The position numbers and the translations under genes are program-made. Source: a virus. Taken from it: 41,503 nucleotides of DNA. Positions 16,862-22,246 of this stretch are shown piece after piece. The DNA is taken from positions 1-41,503 of the IMG/VR virus record IMGVR_UViG_3300005441_000004; one strand, written 5' to 3'. Below the pieces are notes generated by a model. That model was not told where the DNA came from and did not search any database. It saw only the letters and a program-made list of their open reading frames with translations. How positions within the stretch are numbered: the first letter of the stretch is position 1; every line of letters starts with the position of its first letter.

Positions 16862-16891
16862 AGCTTGGCATGACTTGTGCCAGATGTGCAA
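16862..16891 (-). promoter_or_regulatory. Promoter P5' (leftward): TTGCAC-N18-CAAGCT
   Basis: The minus strand reads TTGCACatctggcacaagtcatgcCAAGCT. Its -35 region overlaps that of P5. Confidence 0.5.
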
Positions 16892-16904
16892 CCCGTGCGA
16901 TCCT
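16875..16904 (+). promoter_or_regulatory. Promoter P5 (rightward): TTGTGC-N18-GATCCT
   Basis: TTGTGCcagatgtgcaacccgtgcGATCCT. ATG 16911 follows 6 nt later, so the mRNA would be leaderless. Confidence 0.6.
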
Positions 16905-16910
16905 GGCAGC

Positions 16911-17246
16911 ATGACGACCCCCGAAGAGCGGATCTACGCCGCCACCCACGGCGAGCCCGTCGGCGGGCCGCGCGTGCCCCCGCTGGACCCGCCCGAGCAC
17001 GAATTCGTGACGATCAAGGAAGCCCAGCTGCTCACCGGCGCGGCGCGCCGCACCATCATGGGCTGGCTCGACCGCGGCGAGATCCACCGATTCAAGGCCG
17101 AGAACGGGTACAACACCCTGATCAACAAGGCGGAGCTGCTCAGCTTCGACGCCGCCCGCCGCACCACCCGCAGCGGGCGTGCTCCCGTTGTGATCGACGG
17201 GAAGCCCGTCGCGGACTACGCTCGGGAACCTTCGCCCGACCAGTGA
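16911..17246 (+). CDS. Excisionase/MerR-type HTH DNA-binding protein (111 aa)
   Basis: FVTIKEAQLLTGAARRTIMGWLDRGEIHRF. The track ORF is trimmed to ATG 16911. Confidence 0.7.
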   Translation: MTTPEERIYAATHGEPVGGPRVPPLDPPEHEFVTIKEAQLLTGAARRTIMGWLDRGEIHRFKAENGYNTLINKAELLSFDAARRTTRSGRAPVVIDGKPVADYAREPSPDQ

Positions 17247-17257
17247 CCATACGAAAA

Positions 17258-17294
17258 CGAAAGGCCCCCAGCGTCTGGCGCAGGGGGCCTTTCG
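17258..17294. terminator. Terminator-type hairpin after the HTH gene
   Basis: 12-bp stem: cgaaaggccccc (17258-17269) pairs with gggggcctttcg (17283-17294), with a 13-nt loop. Confidence 0.7.
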
Positions 17295-17633
17295 ATGTCA
17301 CGGCCAAGCGACATCCACTACATGAACGAAAGGGCATCTTACGTGAACGACCCCAACACCGTCCAGCGGGACGGCGACGCAACCCTAGATGATGTAGTCG
17401 CGTGGCTGGAGTTCGAAGGCATCGACTGCCTTACCCACGCCTACGTGACCAGCCCCACCGCCTACGCGATTAAGCACACAGCGGAGCGCGCGCTCGGACT
17501 CTACGTTTCCGAGCGCCTCATGATCGACGCGGCGAAGCGCTACGGCTATCCGACGATCACCAGTGACGCAGGCACGCACGTCGGCATGGACAACGACGGC
17601 TACGCCGACACGCACAAGCGAGCCTGTCGGTGA
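17295..17633 (+). CDS. Hypothetical protein (112 aa), start uncertain
   Basis: Track ORF. Alternative starts are ATG 17322 and GTG 17343 (after GAAAGGG). GTGA overlap with the replicase start. Confidence 0.5.
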   Translation: MSRPSDIHYMNERASYVNDPNTVQRDGDATLDDVVAWLEFEGIDCLTHAYVTSPTAYAIKHTAERALGLYVSERLMIDAAKRYGYPTITSDAGTHVGMDNDGYADTHKRACR

Positions 17634-20600
17634 CCGCCCCGCAGCGCCCGGAGGCGGCGCTCTTCGAGGGCGCCATGGCCACGATCGCCGCCGGCTACCT
17701 GGTCCGGATGGTCGAGATCGGCTGGGACTCCGCCAAGGGCAAGAAGAAACTGGTCCGCAACCCCGGCGAGAACTGGCAGGCCGGCCCCCAGCTGAGCCAG
17801 GCGCAGGTCATGGAAGCCATCCGCGCCGGCTGCAACGCCTACCTCTACCGACTCCCGGACGGCGTCTGGGTGGTCGACGTCGATGCCCACGAGATGATGC
17901 TGACGATCGGCGAACGGCTCGGCGCCCCGGATGTCGTCACCCCGCGCGGCGGCGCCCACTGGCTGGTCGACGCCCAGCTGGACCCCGTCGCCGGAATCGA
18001 CACCGAACCGCGCCAGCTCTACGGGCCCGGCTCGTTCTACGAGATCCCCGGCCGCGGCATGGTCGCCTACACCGGCACCGTCCCGGCCGGCCCGCGTCAC
18101 CTGCCGGACAACCTGCCGCGCAAAACAGCGAAGCCTGCCCAGCCCGCCGCGCCGGGCGAAACCGGCGCGTTGGCGGACTACCTGGCCCGGCGGGACCTGC
18201 GGGCCATGCCCCGGGGGCGGGCGAACCAGCGCGCCGCCGAGCTACTGGCCGCGATCGCCAACGGCCCGGAGACCGGCGCGGCCGCGCGGCTGGGGATCAA
18301 CAACGCCGCGGCGTTCCTCGGCGGCCTGCTGCACACCGGCCTGCTCGAGCACGGCGCCGCGGTGGACGCCCTGGAGTCGGCGTGCGAGCTGCGCTGGGGC
18401 ACCTGCTCCGAAGCCGATCGCCAGTGGATCCAGGAAGGCCTGTCCTTCGGGGTGGCCAACCCGGTCGAGATCTACGAGCCGGAGGAACGCGCCGCCGAGC
18501 AAGCCGCCGCGGTGATGCACGCCCCTTTCGACCCCGCGAGCCCTTTCGGTTCTGAGCCCTTCACCTGGGCCGGAGCCACCGCACTGGACATGGCCGACGC
18601 GCTGCTGGTCCGCGTCGCCCCGGCGCTGCGGGTGATGTGGTCGGACGTCACCACCGGCAAACCGGCCTGCCTCACCCGCTCCACCCGCGGCCACTGGTCC
18701 TACGTCGCCGACGGGTTCAAGTGGGCCGCGCTGCGCCTGCTCGACACCATGCCCCGCGGCGTCCGCCCGGAAACCAAAGAGCGCTCCGAGTGGACAGAGG
18801 AGAACTGGGCTCACCACCGCCGGGACCGCTTCACCCGCGAACTCACTGAGGTCGTCGGCCTGGCCGAAGCTCGCGTCCGCCACCCCGATCACGGGCTGGT
18901 CGTCACTCCCGCCCAAGTCGAGGGCCCGCGCGAAGTCGTGTGGTGCGCCGGCACGCCATGGCGCCTCGGCTCGGTCATCGACGTCGCTCCGATGCCGGCC
19001 GGCACCCCGCACATGCACTCCATCCCCTTCGCCCCCGCCGACGTCCCCACCCCCGCGTGGAACCGGTTCGTCAAGGCGATGTGGCCCGAGGAAGACGTGG
19101 CCGAGTGGGCGCTGCGCGTGCTCGCCGTCGGGTTCACCGGCGATTCGGACGCCGTCATGCCCGTACTGCACGGGCCGACCGGGCGCGGCAAGTCGAAGTT
19201 CATGGGGCGCGTGCTCGCCCTGCTCGGCGGCTACGGCACCGCCGCCAGCAAGGCCTTGATCGTGCCCACCGCCGGCAATGTGGACGTCGCGAAGGCCCAC
19301 CTACAGGGCGTCCGGCTCGCGTGGCTGGATGAGGCACCTGGCACCGGCAAAGCCTCGGTGGAGGCGCTCAAGGACATCACCGGCGGCGGGGATGTTTACG
19401 CCGCGGCGAAGTACCGGGCGCCGATCGTCTTCAAGAGCACCCACACCCTCGTGCTCACCATGAACGACGCGCCCGAGATCCACGACGAAGCCGTCGCCCG
19501 TCGCGTCCGACTCATCCCGTGCTTCGGCGACCCGGAGGAGCTGGGCCACGCGTTCGACGAACTCGCCCCCGCCTGGGATCGGGAGGCGCCCGGCGTCCTG
19601 GCCGCCATGCTCCAGCGCGCCGCAGCCTACCTCGTCGACTGGCGCACCATCGGAGAGGACCACGCACCCGCTACTGTCCGTGAGATCACGGCCCGGATCA
19701 TCGGCGAGCAGGACGTCATCGGGATGTGGCTGGCGCAGTGCACGCGGCCCAGCGAAGAGGGGATGCGCAGCGGCGATCTCTACGCCAACTTCCGCGACTT
19801 CGCCCGGCAGTTCTCGGAGTGGGAAAAGCGGGTGCCGGCGTCCAACGTGTGGTCCGCGCGGGTGGACCGAGCGGGTTACCCGGTCTTCAAGCGCCCGAAG
19901 AACATTCCGTACCGCGCGCTGGCTCTGGCCAACGGAGGGGACGTTTCGTGGGCCGTCGCACCCTCCCCGGTTACGGGGGTGAGGGGGGTTGGTGATGGGG
20001 TGAAGCCCGACCCGTCACCCGCCGAGACCAGCGGCAACGCGCCAAATGTTACTAGTGTTATGACCTCTCAATATACTATTACGGGAGGAGTAGTAGAAAG
20101 TAGGGGGGAGGGAGACAATGGAAAAACCGAGTTAACCACCCCTCCCTCATCACCCGCTCCCGCGCTCCTCAGCTCGGCTCTCGCGGACCAGCCGGACCCC
20201 GGCTCAGTGATCAACTGCGCGTGGTGCGCAGGGCCTGCGGAGCTCACGAAGTCGATCAAGTTCAAGGTCCACAAGACCCCCGCCGGCGACCGGTGCGACG
20301 GCTCCCAGCAGACACCCCCGGGGGTGCTTACGCTCCGTGAGCGGAAGGCGAAGGAACGCGACGCGATCAAGCTCGGCAAGATCACCGCCGCGGCCGGGCC
20401 GACGCTGACCCTGCCCGCCGCCATGCGCCGCGGCGAAGAACCCCGCCAAGTCACCGCCGCCGAAGCGCTGGCCATCGGGCGTGCCGCCATCGCCCGCAAC
20501 GGCGGCCGGATCGCCGTGGACTGCGAGACCAACGCCCGGCCGCTCTGGCACCCCGAGTACGCCACCCAGACCATCCAGCTTGGCGACTGGGCCGAAGCGA

Positions 20601-22246
20601 TCGACCTCGACGCGTCCGACCCCGAGCACCGCGCCGTCGCGGCCACCCTTATCGCCGAGGCGGCCGAGCTCGAGGCCTTCAGCTACACCGCGGACCTGGT
20701 GCCGCTGGCACGCCTCGGCATCGCCGAGTACGACGCGATGTTGGCCAAGTGCGTCGATGTCGCCACGATCGTTAAGCTCACCGATCCGGCCCTGACCGCC
20801 AACGGCGACGGCCTCAAAGAGACCTCGGCCGCCGTGCTCGGCGACGCCGCGCTGTCCCCGGCCGCCGAAGACGCCCGCAAGGCACTCGGCGACGCAGCCG
20901 GCTGGATCTGGAAGCTCGAGCACGACACCCCCGATGAACGCAACGGGTGGCTCCAGGTGGACCGCCGGTGCGCCACCATGGCCCGCTACGCCATGGCCGA
21001 CGTCCTGGACTGCTCGGCCCTGCGCCTCAAGCTGCCCCAGCCAGACCCGGCCGTCATGGCCCGCGAGATCGTCGCTGAGCGCGTCGTAGCCAAGCTTCCC
21101 TACCTCGGGCTCGCCATCGACGGCCCGGCCGTCAGGGCGCAACTGAGCGACCGGGAACCCCGCGCCGCGGCCAAGCTCACCCGGATCCGCGAGCTCGGGG
21201 TGGGGAACCCGGACTCCCCGAAGCAGGTCACCGAGCGCCTGCGCGCCCTCGGCGCGATCCTCCCGCAGACCAAGGGCGGCAACGACTCCGGCGCGAAAGA
21301 CGTGCTCGAGAAGCTGCAGCACGCTCCGGGCGAACTCGGCGAGCTGGCTAAAACGATCATGGGCTGGCGCGACGACGCCACCGTGCTCAAGAACATGATC
21401 CGCCCCTGGGCCCGCTCCACCGAGCACGGCGACTGCCGCACCTACCCGACGATCTACACCCTCGGCGCCGACACCGGCCGCATGAGCTGCGTCCGCCCGA
21501 ACCTGCAGCAAGTGGCCCGCGAGGGAGGCCTGCGCGAGTGCATCGCCGCCGACCCCGGCATGCTCTTCATCGCCGCGGACTTCTCCTCGGTGGAGGTTCG
21601 CGTCGCCGCCTACGTCTCCGGCGACCGCAACCTCATCGCGATGATCAACGGGGCCATCACGTGCCCGACATGCCAGGCCGGCACGACCTGCGTGCACCAC
21701 GACCTGCACGCTATGATCGCCAACCAGGCGTACGGGCCGGGGTTCACGAAGGCGAACCGCTACAACGTCAAGCGCGTCGTCTTCGGCCGGCTCTACGGCG
21801 GCAGCGCGCCGACACTGGCCGCCCAGACGGGCCTCGACATCCCGATGGTGGACCGGCTCGTGGCCATCCTCGACGCCCTCGCCCCCCAGCTGGCCGCGTG
21901 GTCCGCGCAGGTCCGCCAGGCTGTCAAGAACGGGCTGCGCGAGTACCGGACGTACTCCGGACGGGTGATTCACCTCGACCCCCGCTTGCCGCACAAGGCC
22001 CCGAACTACATCATTCAGGGCACCGCCCGCGAGCTGCTTGTGGACGCGCTCATCCACTGGGAGCAAGGCCCGTACGCCAGGGGTGTCGTGCTCCCTGTGC
22101 ACGACGAGATCGTGGCCATGGTCCCCACCGAGCAGGCCCCCGCGGCAACCCGGTTCCTGGTGCAGTGCATGACCACCCAGCTCGGCCCGGTGCCGATCAC
22201 GGTGGAGGCCGACGAACCGGCCGAGGTCTGGCAGAGTGCCGCGTGA
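17630..22246 (+). CDS. Fused replicase (1538 aa): AEP PrimPol domain, D5/P4-type SF3 helicase, 3'-5' exonuclease and family-A DNA polymerase
   Basis: PrimPol: VVDVDAHE and TPRGGAHW. Helicase: HGPTGRGKSKF (Walker A) and WLDEAPG (Walker B). Exonuclease: IAVDCETN. PolA: DFSSVEVRVAAY (motif A), KRVVFGRLYGGS (motif B), PVHDEIV (motif C). Single uninterrupted track ORF. Confidence 0.85.
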   Translation: MTAPQRPEAALFEGAMATIAAGYLVRMVEIGWDSAKGKKKLVRNPGENWQAGPQLSQAQVMEAIRAGCNAYLYRLPDGVWVVDVDAHEMMLTIGERLGAPDVVTPRGGAHWLVDAQLDPVAGIDTEPRQLYGPGSFYEIPGRGMVAYTGTVPAGPRHLPDNLPRKTAKPAQPAAPGETGALADYLARRDLRAMPRGRANQRAAELLAAIANGPETGAAARLGINNAAAFLGGLLHTGLLEHGAAVDALESACELRWGTCSEADRQWIQEGLSFGVANPVEIYEPEERAAEQAAAVMHAPFDPASPFGSEPFTWAGATALDMADALLVRVAPALRVMWSDVTTGKPACLTRSTRGHWSYVADGFKWAALRLLDTMPRGVRPETKERSEWTEENWAHHRRDRFTRELTEVVGLAEARVRHPDHGLVVTPAQVEGPREVVWCAGTPWRLGSVIDVAPMPAGTPHMHSIPFAPADVPTPAWNRFVKAMWPEEDVAEWALRVLAVGFTGDSDAVMPVLHGPTGRGKSKFMGRVLALLGGYGTAASKALIVPTAGNVDVAKAHLQGVRLAWLDEAPGTGKASVEALKDITGGGDVYAAAKYRAPIVFKSTHTLVLTMNDAPEIHDEAVARRVRLIPCFGDPEELGHAFDELAPAWDREAPGVLAAMLQRAAAYLVDWRTIGEDHAPATVREITARIIGEQDVIGMWLAQCTRPSEEGMRSGDLYANFRDFARQFSEWEKRVPASNVWSARVDRAGYPVFKRPKNIPYRALALANGGDVSWAVAPSPVTGVRGVGDGVKPDPSPAETSGNAPNVTSVMTSQYTITGGVVESRGEGDNGKTELTTPPSSPAPALLSSALADQPDPGSVINCAWCAGPAELTKSIKFKVHKTPAGDRCDGSQQTPPGVLTLRERKAKERDAIKLGKITAAAGPTLTLPAAMRRGEEPRQVTAAEALAIGRAAIARNGGRIAVDCETNARPLWHPEYATQTIQLGDWAEAIDLDASDPEHRAVAATLIAEAAELEAFSYTADLVPLARLGIAEYDAMLAKCVDVATIVKLTDPALTANGDGLKETSAAVLGDAALSPAAEDARKALGDAAGWIWKLEHDTPDERNGWLQVDRRCATMARYAMADVLDCSALRLKLPQPDPAVMAREIVAERVVAKLPYLGLAIDGPAVRAQLSDREPRAAAKLTRIRELGVGNPDSPKQVTERLRALGAILPQTKGGNDSGAKDVLEKLQHAPGELGELAKTIMGWRDDATVLKNMIRPWARSTEHGDCRTYPTIYTLGADTGRMSCVRPNLQQVAREGGLRECIAADPGMLFIAADFSSVEVRVAAYVSGDRNLIAMINGAITCPTCQAGTTCVHHDLHAMIANQAYGPGFTKANRYNVKRVVFGRLYGGSAPTLAAQTGLDIPMVDRLVAILDALAPQLAAWSAQVRQAVKNGLREYRTYSGRVIHLDPRLPHKAPNYIIQGTARELLVDALIHWEQGPYARGVVLPVHDEIVAMVPTEQAPAATRFLVQCMTTQLGPVPITVEADEPAEVWQSAA

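What the first reader, a model, noticed from the sequence alone, without database searches (positions are those of the whole stretch)
20044..20135. AT-rich, intergenic-looking island translated in frame at the helicase/polymerase junction
Within the high-G+C replicase ORF, positions 20044-20103 hold 21 G+C out of 60 by my count. The codons in this stretch end mostly in A or T (AAT GTT ACT AGT GTT ATG ACC TCT CAA TAT ACT ATT ...).

The island carries:
- a -10-like TATACT, with GTTACT 18 nt upstream
- two strong SD-like runs, GGGAGGAG (20083-20090) and GGGGGGAGGGAG (20103-20114)
- an out-of-frame ATG (20118) with ideal spacing that opens only a 5-codon ORF (MEKPS)
- stop codons in both other frames (TAG 20053, TGA 20061, TAG TAG 20091-20096, TAG 20101)

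It reads like a former intergenic region (stop, promoter, RBS) that became a linker when two genes fused. Alternatively it may still act as an internal promoter or RBS, or it could hide a sequencing indel.
Basis: seen in the sequence. Interest (0 to 1): 0.62.

Follow-up and report, generated by a model that had tools for sequence, protein, structure and literature searches.

The report
Replication origin translated as protein linker
The A+T-rich patch inside this soil phage's giant primase-helicase-polymerase gene is most likely the phage's replication origin, written into DNA that is also translated as the floppy linker between the two halves of the enzyme; this is a new twist on a known layout, not a sequencing error.

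Summary
Positions 20040-20135 are the lowest-G+C stretch of the whole 41.5-kb phage genome (0.38 against 0.70; in-frame GC3 0.31 against 0.90).

It is not an indel. About 28 relatives (30-72% identity, independent metagenomes) keep the same ~1,540-aa open frame.

In all 25 related loci examined, the G+C minimum of the gene or locus falls at this same place. That place is just after a predicted winged-helix domain that ends the SF3 helicase part.

Many relatives carry lineage-specific 8-9-nt repeats there and nowhere else in the fetched DNA. They point one way on the left of the A+T core and the opposite way on the right. The window's own repeats are degenerate.

Repeats spaced 11 nt apart, and DNA blocks conserved across shifted reading frames, show selection on the DNA rather than the peptide.

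In unfused relatives the helicase gene stops and the same module lies in the intergenic space, as in staphylococcal SaPI pri-rep-ori replicons.

Best reading (about 0.75, inferred, no experiment): an iteron plus A+T-core origin read through as a disordered linker. Promoter, RBS and indel are not.

The scan reached the same reading earlier on other genomes (e1-3280541, e1-2453892).

The parts
17630..22246 (+). Single ORF of 1,538 aa: N-terminal primase-polymerase-like region, SF3 (D5/P4-type) helicase, winged-helix domain, linker, putative zinc ribbon, 3'-5' exonuclease and family A polymerase.
   Evidence: Translation is. Pfam gives DUF5906 at aa 513-625 and DNA_pol_A at aa 1184-1528. PHROGs give primase/helicase at aa 467-767 and polymerase at aa 955-1529. 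About 28 full-length relatives share the architecture, and some of them hit the Prim-Pol family PF09250.
19712..19933 (+). Coding region of a predicted winged-helix domain (aa 695-768), the candidate repeat-binding module. The recognition helix is about aa 738-747 and the beta-hairpin wing is aa 752-766 (VFKR-PKN-IPYRALAL).
   Evidence: The AlphaFold2 model gives pLDDT 82-90 for this segment. The best Foldseek matches are RFX winged-helix DNA-binding domains (8zjr_M probability 0.99, TM 0.70; 1dp7_P), then the AsfvPrimPol C-terminus and the ORC2 winged-helix domain. E-values are weak at 0.12 or above. The wing sequence co-varies with the repeat sequence among relatives.
19934..20182 (+). Translated linker (aa 769-851), predicted to be disordered. 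It is co-extensive with the whole origin-like module.
   Evidence: pLDDT is 25-34 over model residues 140-222. There are no invariant columns between R762 and G923 in 26 relatives. The amino-acid sequence is highly variable.
19969..20019 (+). Left array of degenerate iteron-like repeats: GGTTACGGG (19969), GGTGAGGGG (19978) and GGTGATGGG (19991) forward, and GGTGACGGG (20011-20019) on the minus strand. The last two form a head-to-head pair.
   Evidence: Pattern search is and the independent L002-derived pattern. They are collinear with the clear GTGACGGGT / GTTACGGC arrays of relatives. In the window alone the cluster is the largest in the genome but is not significant (765 of 2000 random placements).
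20047..20064 (+). Two A+T-shifted repeat copies (TGTTACTAG, TGTTATGAC) at the left edge of the core.
   Evidence: They align column for column with TGTGACTGG / TGTGACGGG of L002 and L006, and with GTTACGGC / GTTACTAC of L009.
20040..20103 (.). A+T-rich core, the candidate DNA-unwinding element. It is the lowest-G+C window of the genome.
   Evidence: Searches show this for the window. The lowest-G+C 60-nt window falls at the homologous place in all 11 fused genes first examined and in all 14 further loci.
20083..20127 (+). Purine-rich tract with a G6 run (GGGAGGAGTAGTAGAAAGTAGGGGGGAGGGAGACAATGGAAAAA).
   Evidence: The purine fraction is 0.77 in the 60 nt to the right of the G+C minimum, and 0.65-0.77 in the close relatives. 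Its phase-shifted blocks stay 74-91% identical to L004 as DNA while read in shifted frames. A G5-6 run is present at this place in most relatives.
20134..20161 (-). Right, C-rich arm: AACCACCCCTCC and CCCTCATCACCC (the reverse complement is GGGTGATGAGGG, a repeat copy at 20146-20154 on the minus strand). It mirrors the G-rich left arm.
   Evidence: Inverted repeats I7, I16, I23 and I25 pair 19934-20000 with 20134-20161 at 76-83%. G+C skew flips from +0.09 to -0.20 across the island; 1.3% of control positions reach this difference. It aligns with the reverse-oriented repeats of relatives.
20183..20416 (+). Putative zinc ribbon (CAWC...HK...C, aa 852-929) that opens the polymerase half.
   Evidence: pLDDT is 70-88 with short strands. 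The CxxC...HK...C pattern is conserved in the closer relatives and absent in the most distant ones. There is no Pfam hit.

Best explanation
The island is the A+T-rich melting core of the phage's replication origin. Short initiator-binding repeats (iterons) flank it and point in opposite directions on its two sides. The module sits immediately after the part of the gene that encodes the SF3 helicase and its C-terminal winged-helix domain.

By analogy with SaPI Rep proteins, the proposed mechanism is as follows. The winged-helix domains of the replicase bind the repeats. Helicase rings load on either side of the core and melt it. The primase and PolA parts of the same polypeptide then start synthesis.

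In this actinophage clade the origin is not intergenic. The reading frame runs through it, so the same ~250 nt also encode an ~83-aa disordered tether between the primase-helicase half and the zinc-ribbon-exonuclease-PolA half.

**Shown:** the composition, its positional conservation, the repeat arrays in relatives, selection at the DNA level, the intergenic homologue in unfused relatives, and the disorder of the encoded peptide.

**Inferred:** that replication starts here, and that the winged-helix domain is what binds the repeats.
For: 1. **Lowest G+C in the genome.** The island is the lowest-G+C window of the complete genome. GC3 is 0.31 against 0.90, so amino-acid composition does not explain the A+T richness.
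2. **Same position in every relative.** The G+C minimum falls in the same linker in 11 of 11 fused genes (30-77% identity). It also falls there in 14 of 14 further loci found with the winged-helix/linker alignment.
3. **Repeats confined to the module in relatives.**
   - L002: ACCCGTCAC, 9 of 9 copies in the locus. GTGACGGGT with at most 1 mismatch gives 12 of 13 hits in 310 nt, against 2.4 expected.
   - L009: GCCGTAAC, 8 of 8.
   - L011: AACTGTCC, 9 of 9.
   - L008: GCCCTCAC, 5 of 5.
   - L006: 6 of 6.
   - L019: 6 of 6.
   - L023: 6 of 6.
   - L027: 6 of 6.
   - Copies are mostly forward on the left of the core and reverse on the right.
4. **Selection acts on the DNA.**
   - The 11-nt spacing in L002 and L011 puts successive copies in different reading frames.
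   - The phase-shifted blocks of the purine tract are 74-91% identical between the window and L004 while read in shifted frames.
5. **Unfused relatives carry the same module between genes.** In D5_N+DUF5906 helicases it lies in the intergenic space right after the stop codon, for example L030 with ATGACGGTT x2 forward and x2 reverse.
6. **The layout matches a characterised origin type.** The SaPI ori has 6-12 iterons immediately downstream of rep, an A+T-rich centre, and iterons on each side pointing in opposite directions. They are bound by the Rep C-terminal winged-helix domain (PMC9371898).
7. **The encoded protein fits.** A winged-helix-like fold directly precedes the module, and the module encodes a disordered segment.
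8. **Wing and repeat co-vary.** The wing motif 'HT-xHG' goes with TGACGGGT in L002, L005, L006, L012 and L024.
9. **Origins inside initiator genes are known.**
   - Lambda ori lies in the linker-coding part of O, and in-frame deletions of its A+T region leave O functional in trans (PMC6022878).
   - N15 replication starts within repA (PMC2847241).
10. **An attP site is unlikely.** No integrase is found in the genome.
Against: - There are no experimental data, and read-depth and raw-read analysis was unavailable.
- In the window itself the repeats are degenerate.
  - Exact 7-mer repeat density of the island window is unremarkable (rank 743 of 823).
  - The cluster of four GTGACGGG-like sites is not significant by random placement (765 of 2000).
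  - So the window's case rests largely on collinearity with relatives.
- Several relatives also show only weak repeats (L004, L007, L010, L012, L020).
- The winged-helix assignment rests on a 10-sequence AlphaFold model and on Foldseek E-values of 0.12 or above.
- No sequence-level similarity to SaPI Rep was found in the PDB search, only weak ASFV C962R matches.
- Wing-repeat co-variation could be shared ancestry.
- Genome-wide G+C skew gives no origin signal.
Confidence: 0.75

Rival explanations
1. Internal transcription control region. The A+T-rich core would be a promoter for the polymerase half or the downstream late genes, and the flanking repeats would be operator sites for a regulator.
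For: - A+T-rich DNA with a TATACT hexamer sits in a 70% G+C genome.
- The repeats could be operators.
- A small HTH_17/MerR-like gene is conserved just upstream of the replicase gene in relatives.
- The late genes (terminase, portal) follow about 2 kb downstream.
Against: - The consensus scan finds no sigma-70-type site.
- The hexamers are not conserved, and the '-35' is a repeat copy.
- No in-frame start follows for a separate polymerase product.
- Six to twelve repeats in both orientations around an A+T core, directly after an SF3 helicase with a winged-helix domain, is the described origin layout.
- Promoter types other than sigma-70 are not covered by the scan, so this is not excluded.
Confidence: 0.08
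2. The island has no present DNA-level function. It would be a relic of the intergenic spacer kept only as a flexible tether. Alternatively, its rare A/T-ending codons and SD-like G-runs slow ribosomes so that the 800-aa N-terminal half folds before the polymerase half emerges.
For: - The encoded segment is disordered and poorly conserved as protein.
- GC3 of 0.31 means a cluster of rare codons, including TTA at 20131.
- SD-like GGAGG runs are present.
Against: - A relic would drift toward the genomic 70% G+C. Instead the minimum is kept in lineages down to 22-30% identity.
- Repeats are maintained on both sides and change together within a lineage.
- DNA blocks are conserved across frame shifts.
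- The same module exists untranslated in unfused relatives, so translation-level effects cannot be its primary role. A pausing side effect is not excluded.
Confidence: 0.1
3. Another cis-acting DNA site with repeated protein-binding sites around an A+T core, such as a packaging (pac) site, a partition centromere or a recombination (att) site.
For: Repeats flanking an A+T core also occur in attP arm sites, centromeres and pac regions. The N15 centromere also lies within repA.
Against: - No tyrosine or serine recombinase is found in the complete genome.
- No partition genes were seen in the fetched neighbourhoods.
- The module travels with the helicase/winged-helix gene, not with the terminase, including in unfused relatives with different neighbours.
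Confidence: 0.05
4. Assembly or sequencing indel that falsely joins two genes across a true intergenic region.
For: G and A homopolymers lie in the island. Stops occur in both other frames.
Against: - About 28 relatives from JGI, ENA and Logan assemblies keep a single frame of 1,520-1,610 aa.
- Eleven fetched genes translate through the junction.
- Length differences in the linker are all in frame.
Confidence: 0.01

Closest known systems
SaPI (Staphylococcus aureus pathogenicity island) pri-rep-ori replicons, including the fused PriRep5 (PMC9371898; Ubeda et al. 2007, as cited there)
   Same: - An SF3 self-loading helicase-initiator, with the primase upstream or fused.
- A C-terminal winged-helix domain.
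- An origin immediately 3' of the helicase coding part.
- Short iterons on both sides of an A+T-rich centre, pointing in opposite directions.
- Iteron sequence that is lineage-specific.
   Different: - Here the origin is inside the reading frame and is translated as a linker into a PolA.
- Iterons are 8-9 nt rather than 5-6.
- No detectable sequence similarity to SaPI Rep was found in the PDB search.
- The host is a high-G+C actinomycete and the element is a tailed phage, not a satellite.
Phage lambda ori inside gene O (PMC6022878)
   Same: - The origin lies inside the initiator's own gene.
- It has iterons plus an adjacent ~39-bp A+T-rich region.
- The origin-coding part corresponds to a flexible interdomain linker.
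- In-frame deletions in the A+T region leave the protein active in trans.
   Different: - Lambda O is an unrelated initiator that recruits the host DnaB through P.
- Its four iterons all lie on one side of the A+T region.
- No helicase, primase or polymerase is fused to it.
RepA of linear plasmid prophages N15 / PY54 (PMC2847241; Mardanov and Ravin 2006, as cited there)
   Same: A multifunctional primase-helicase replication protein, with bidirectional replication initiated within the repA gene itself.
   Different: - No polymerase is fused, and the host polymerase is used.
- The fine structure of that internal ori was not compared here.
- Homology was not tested.
All-in-one replicases: lactococcal phage 1706 GP55 (SF3 helicase + AEP primase + PolB; PMC12205980) and apicoplast PREX / Hot-Spring PolA fusions (PMC10201439)
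   Same: Primase, helicase, exonuclease and polymerase are in one polypeptide.
   Different: - Those use PolB, or a TOPRIM primase with a DnaB-type helicase.
- No origin embedded in the interdomain linker is reported in the passages read.
- The D29-like actinophage PolA cluster is listed there with 'no known partners'.

Membership tests
SaPI-type pri-rep-ori replicon | SF3 (D5/P4-type) helicase acting as initiator | tested here: met
   Helicase family only: DUF5906 E = 9.4e-9 at aa 513-625. The primase/helicase PHROG match has E = 1e-39. A weak ASFV C962R match supports this. Initiator activity is not testable here.
SaPI-type pri-rep-ori replicon | C-terminal winged-helix DNA-binding domain after the ATPase | tested here: inconclusive
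   The AF2 segment aa 695-768 has pLDDT 82-90 with helix-strand-helix-helix-hairpin topology. Foldseek's top hits are RFX winged-helix domains at probability 0.99 and 0.92, but with E = 0.12-0.14.
SaPI-type pri-rep-ori replicon | Six to twelve short iterons on both sides of an A+T-rich centre, in opposite orientation, immediately 3' of the helicase coding region | tested here: met
   Clear in relatives L002, L005, L006, L008, L009, L011, L019, L023, L027 and L030. In the window itself there are only 5-8 degenerate copies, not significant on their own. They are collinear with those of relatives, and the G+C skew flips across the island.
SaPI-type pri-rep-ori replicon | Origin lies outside the rep reading frame | tested here: not met
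   The frame is open through the module in the window and in about 28 relatives. The feature is met only in the distant unfused relatives.
SaPI-type pri-rep-ori replicon | Sequence homology to SaPI Rep proteins | tested here: not met
   phmmer of aa 391-800 against all PDB chains returned no chain named as a SaPI Rep or PriRep at E <= 1, although their structures are published (PMC9371898); whether those entries are in this PDB copy was not checked. Only ASFV C962R appeared, at E = 0.07.
SaPI-type pri-rep-ori replicon | Rep binds the iterons and melts the A+T region without ATP | not testable with these tools
   This needs EMSA or footprinting and permanganate probing.
Lambda-type intragenic origin | Origin (iterons plus A+T-rich region) inside the initiator's ORF, encoding an interdomain linker | tested here: met
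   The position lies inside ORF 17630-22246, and the encoded segment is predicted to be disordered. Origin function itself is inferred.
Lambda-type intragenic origin | Initiator belongs to the lambda O family and recruits the host helicase | tested here: not met
   No Pfam hit other than DUF5906, VapE-like and DNA_pol_A. The protein carries its own helicase.
N15/PY54 RepA with internal ori | Primase-polymerase plus SF3 helicase in one protein, with replication starting inside its gene | tested here: inconclusive
   The architecture is comparable, and Prim-Pol PF09250 hits several relatives. Homology to N15 RepA and the structure of its ori were not compared.

The most novel reading that the evidence does not exclude
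Because the origin lies inside the replicase's own message, initiation may be coupled in cis to expression. Transcription through the core would help melt it, as transcriptional activation does at lambda ori. The newly made four-in-one replicase would then load preferentially on the copy that encoded it. On this reading, fusion across the origin was selected to lock origin, initiator specificity (winged-helix wing versus iteron) and polymerase into one unit that recombination cannot separate. It would also give a readable wing-to-iteron recognition code ('HT-xHG' with TGACGGGT, 'KRPKN' with GTTACGG).
Probability: 0.2. Interest if true: 0.65.

Novelty: new variant of a known kind. Interest (0 to 1): 0.55.

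Why it matters
- **A testable origin for an uncultured group.** It gives a concrete origin prediction for a widespread, uncultured group of soil actinophages. Replication origins of actinophages are almost unmapped.
- **An evolutionary series.** Unfused relatives have the helicase gene followed by an intergenic origin. The fused clade has a primase-helicase-origin/linker-PolA gene. This shows how a gene fusion can swallow a cis-acting site, which then stays under dual constraint: it must keep its DNA function and must stay free of stop codons.
- **An annotation caution.** A+T-rich, stop-flanked islands inside large replicase genes should not be 'corrected' as frameshifts.
- **A possible cloning tool.** The module together with its replicase is a candidate minimal replicon for high-G+C hosts.

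Tried and rejected
- **Near-identical phage records.** Megablast against phage records found nothing.
- **Cultured relatives.**
  - tblastn shows only distant Microbacterium phages (under 30% identity) with separate, 4-nt-overlapping primase/helicase and Pol I genes.
  - They have no A+T island or repeats at the junction, so they say nothing about the ancestral state.
- **Stand-alone PolA relatives** (~47% identity) sit in unrelated contexts, or at a contig end with no upstream DNA.
- **The GGGGAGGG motif** is not enriched.
- **Generic repeat statistics.**
  - Exact 7-mer repeat density and a left/right inverted 7-mer test are noisy in 70% G+C DNA.
  - They single out the module in about half of the loci and not in the window.
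- **attP** was rejected because no integrase is present.
- **Structured RNA or ssDNA** was rejected. The only Rfam hit is one far below its gathering threshold (mir-1249, 18.4 bits against 83, E 0.61) and the fold z-score is -0.19.
- **Sigma-70 promoter scan** found none.
- **PDB sequence search** gave only weak ASFV primase-helicase hits.
Full report
**What the window is.** The window is a complete virus record of 41,503 bp with direct terminal repeats. It has about 70% G+C. Terminase and portal genes lie downstream of a replication module. Relatives carry WhiB genes, which points to an actinomycete host.

The finding lies in ORF 17630-22246, which encodes 1,538 aa.
- Pfam and PHROGs place an SF3 (D5/P4-type) primase-helicase at aa 467-767. 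The DUF5906 hit covers aa 513-625.
- A family A polymerase with its exonuclease lies at aa 955-1529.
- The island encodes aa ~805-835, between these two parts.

**The observation.**
- 21 G+C in 20044-20103.
- TATACT at 20072, with GTTACT 18 nt upstream.
- GGGAGGAG at 20083 and GGGGGGAGGGAG at 20103.
- An out-of-frame ATG at 20118 that gives MEKPS*.
- Stop codons in both other frames.

The island is the lowest-G+C 60-nt and 100-nt window of the entire genome (0.38 and 0.43; the next lowest are 0.47 and 0.49). Third-codon-position G+C is 0.31 there, against 0.90 for the gene. The A+T richness therefore does not come from amino-acid choice.

**Not an artefact.**
- A search restricted to proteins of similar length found about 28 relatives of 1,520-1,610 aa at 30-72% identity.
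- They come from JGI, ENA and Logan assemblies, and all combine DUF5906 (some also Prim-Pol) with DNA_pol_A.
- They align end to end, and there are no invariant columns between R762 and G923.
- An IMG/VR relative at 77% identity (L002) is also open through the junction.
- The indel hypothesis is therefore rejected.

**Positional conservation.**
- I fetched the DNA of nine relatives, in addition to L002.
- In all 11 genes, including the window's, the lowest-G+C 60-nt window of the gene falls in the same linker, at aa 804-887.
- A second search with an alignment of the region aa 630-960 returned 16 loci, two of them (L016, L018) from contigs already held; in the other 14 the lowest-G+C window of the locus lies 370-640 nt after the start of the match. 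That is just past the end of the helicase part.

**Repeats.** Many relatives carry 8-9-nt words that occur only around the island.

| Locus | Repeat | Copies at the island / in the locus |
|---|---|---|
| L002 | ACCCGTCAC | 9 of 9 |
| L009 | GCCGTAAC | 8 of 8 |
| L011 | AACTGTCC | 9 of 9 |
| L008 | GCCCTCAC | 5 of 5 |
| L006 | ACCCGTCA | 6 of 6 |
| L005 | ACCCGTCA | 5 of 5 |
| L019 | GTGCAGGG | 6 of 6 |
| L023 | TGAAGGGT | 6 of 6 |

- In L002, GTGACGGGT with at most one mismatch gives 12 of its 13 hits within 310 nt, against 2.4 expected by chance.
- Copies are mostly in one orientation to the left of the A+T core and in the opposite orientation to the right.
- A multiple DNA alignment shows a common order:
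  1. three forward copies;
  2. one reverse copy;
  3. a spacer;
  4. two forward copies;
  5. the A+T core;
  6. a purine tract with a G5-6 run;
  7. two or three reverse copies.

**The window's own repeats are weaker, and this must be stated plainly.**
- The left array is GGTTACGGG, GGTGAGGGG and GGTGATGGG forward, then GGTGACGGG reverse (19969-20019).
- Two A+T-shifted copies follow (TGTTACTAG and TGTTATGAC, 20047-20064).
- GGTGATGAG lies reversed on the right (20146-20154).
- This is the largest cluster in the genome for the independently derived L002 motif. It is not significant by random placement (765 of 2000).
- Exact 7-mer repeat density is unremarkable in the window and in L004, L007, L010 and L012.
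- Imperfect inverted repeats do pair 19934-20000 with 20134-20161.
- The G+C skew flips from G-rich to C-rich across the island; 1.3% of control positions reach this difference.

**Selection acts on the DNA, not the peptide.**
- In L002 and L011 successive repeats are 11 nt apart, so they are read in different frames. GTGACGGGT is translated as GDG, then VTG, then HDG.
- Between the window and L004, the phase-shifted blocks of the purine tract...AGTA / AGAAAGT / AGGGGGGAGGGA..., are 74-91% identical as DNA. Small indels shift their reading frame by +1, +2 and +1.
- The protein sequence of the linker is otherwise almost unalignable.

**Unfused relatives.**
- Seven of the distant loci have helicase ORFs that end right after the homologous C-terminal region: L025/L026, L027, L028 and L029-L031.
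- Pfam confirmed the four that were scanned (L025, L027, L028, L030) as D5_N+DUF5906, and L027 also carries Prim-Pol.
- In these loci the A+T-rich core with opposed repeats sits in the intergenic space directly after the stop codon:
  - L030: ATGACGGTT x2, then the core, then AACCGTCAT x2.
  - L027: ATCTGCCAC, 6 of 6, around a core of 18% G+C.
  - L028: GTAGGGTT, then AACCCTAC.

**The protein around it.** An AlphaFold2 model of aa 630-960, built from a 10-sequence alignment, gives three segments:
- A confident helix-strand-helix-helix-hairpin domain at aa 695-768 (pLDDT 82-90).
- A disordered stretch at aa 769-851 (pLDDT 25-34). This corresponds to nt 19934-20182, the whole repeat-core-repeat module.
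- A small strand-rich domain with the CxxC...HK...C pattern at aa 852-929 (pLDDT 70-88).

Foldseek's best matches for the first domain are RFX winged-helix DNA-binding domains (probability 0.99 and 0.92, TM 0.70 and 0.61), followed by the AsfvPrimPol C-terminus and the ORC2 winged-helix domain. E-values are weak at 0.12 or above.

The hairpin tip (the wing) varies among relatives and tracks the repeat sequence:
- 'HT-(R/M)(H/N)G' goes with TGACGGGT in L002, L005, L006 and also in the distant L012 and L024.
- '(K/R)RP(K/N/H)N' goes with GTTACGG-type repeats in the window, L004, L008 and L009.

Shared ancestry could also explain this pattern.

**Interpretation.** The layout matches the published description of SaPI origins point for point (PMC9371898):
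- 6-12 iterons lie immediately downstream of rep.
- The centre is A+T-rich.
- At least two iterons lie on each side and point in opposite directions.
- They are recognised by the winged-helix domain in the C-terminal part of a self-loading SF3 helicase.
- In SaPI5 the primase is fused to that helicase.

Origins inside the initiator's own gene are also known:
- Lambda ori has four iterons plus a 39-bp A+T-rich region. It lies in the part of O that separates its two domains, and in-frame deletions of the A+T region leave O active in trans (PMC6022878).
- N15 replication starts within repA, a primase-helicase gene (PMC2847241).

I therefore read the island as the melting core of the phage origin, read through as a disordered tether. 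Confidence is about 0.75. The function itself is inferred.

**Alternatives.**
- A sigma-70-type internal promoter is not supported. The scan is negative, the hexamers are not conserved, and the '-35' is a repeat copy.
- Internal translation starts are not supported. The ATG is not conserved, and no in-frame start follows the G-runs.
- attP is excluded by the absence of any integrase.
- No Rfam family reaches its threshold and no unusual single-strand fold is present.
- A purely passive linker, or a rare-codon pause site, cannot explain the untranslated homologue in unfused relatives.
- A second origin elsewhere is not excluded. That gap is not A+T-rich.

**Novelty.**
- The principle is known: an iteron/A+T origin after an SF3 initiator, and an origin inside an initiator gene.
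- The variant is an origin translated as the linker of a primase-helicase-exonuclease-PolA single-chain replicase, with unfused intermediates. It was not found in the literature I searched.
- A 2025 paper calls a helicase-primase-PolB four-in-one replicase unprecedented (PMC12205980).
- A PolA classification lists actinophage D29-like PolAs with no known fusion partners (PMC10201439).
- The scan's own earlier follow-ups reached the same reading on other genomes (e1-3280541, e1-2453892). I saw these only after recording my own reading, and they are not independent evidence.

Noticed in passing
window 20131-20133: There is an in-frame TTA (Leu) codon inside the linker. From general knowledge, TTA is the rarest codon in high-G+C actinomycetes and depends on the bldA tRNA in Streptomyces. 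It could make synthesis of the polymerase half depend on host physiology, or it may be a by-product of the A+T-rich DNA.
   Followed up: no
L012:12226-12252; L023:3590-3615; L028:3540-3552; L029:744-760; L030:3499-3515: Several relatives have alternating purine-pyrimidine tracts inside the origin-like module, next to the A+T core. Examples are CACACACGCGCGCACACACA and ACGCGCGCACGCGCGCAG, which are Z-DNA-prone or palindromic. The window has no such tract.
   Followed up: no
window 19883-19927 (aa 752-766) and the homologous residues in L002-L024: The beta-hairpin wing of the predicted winged-helix domain co-varies with the repeat sequence. 'HT-xHG' goes with TGACGGGT, including in relatives at only 22-30% identity. 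'(K/R)RP(K/N/H)N' goes with GTTACGG-type repeats. This may be a recognition code.
   Followed up: partly
L025:3595-5073: In an unfused relative, the gene that starts right after the intergenic origin-like module opens with a primase-type zinc ribbon (Zn_Ribbon_Prim, E = 1.5e-8). This parallels the putative zinc ribbon that opens the polymerase half right after the linker in the window (20183-20416).
   Followed up: partly
window 16877-17633; L005:9107-9415; L006:9549-9857; L008:7050-7259; L009:342-620; L010:9653-9862: A small HTH_17/MerR-like gene is conserved just upstream of the replicase gene in relatives. The window's two small ORFs at this place gave no Pfam or PHROG hit. It is a possible regulator, or a second origin-binding factor.
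   Followed up: no
It is not among the low-G+C windows of the genome.
   Followed up: partly
window 17630-22246: The ORF combines primase-polymerase, SF3 helicase, exonuclease and PolA in one chain. A 2025 paper describes a helicase-primase-PolB 'four-in-one' replicase as unprecedented (PMC12205980). This PolA-based family of about 28 or more members, known only from metagenomes, is a second, independent type.
   Followed up: partly
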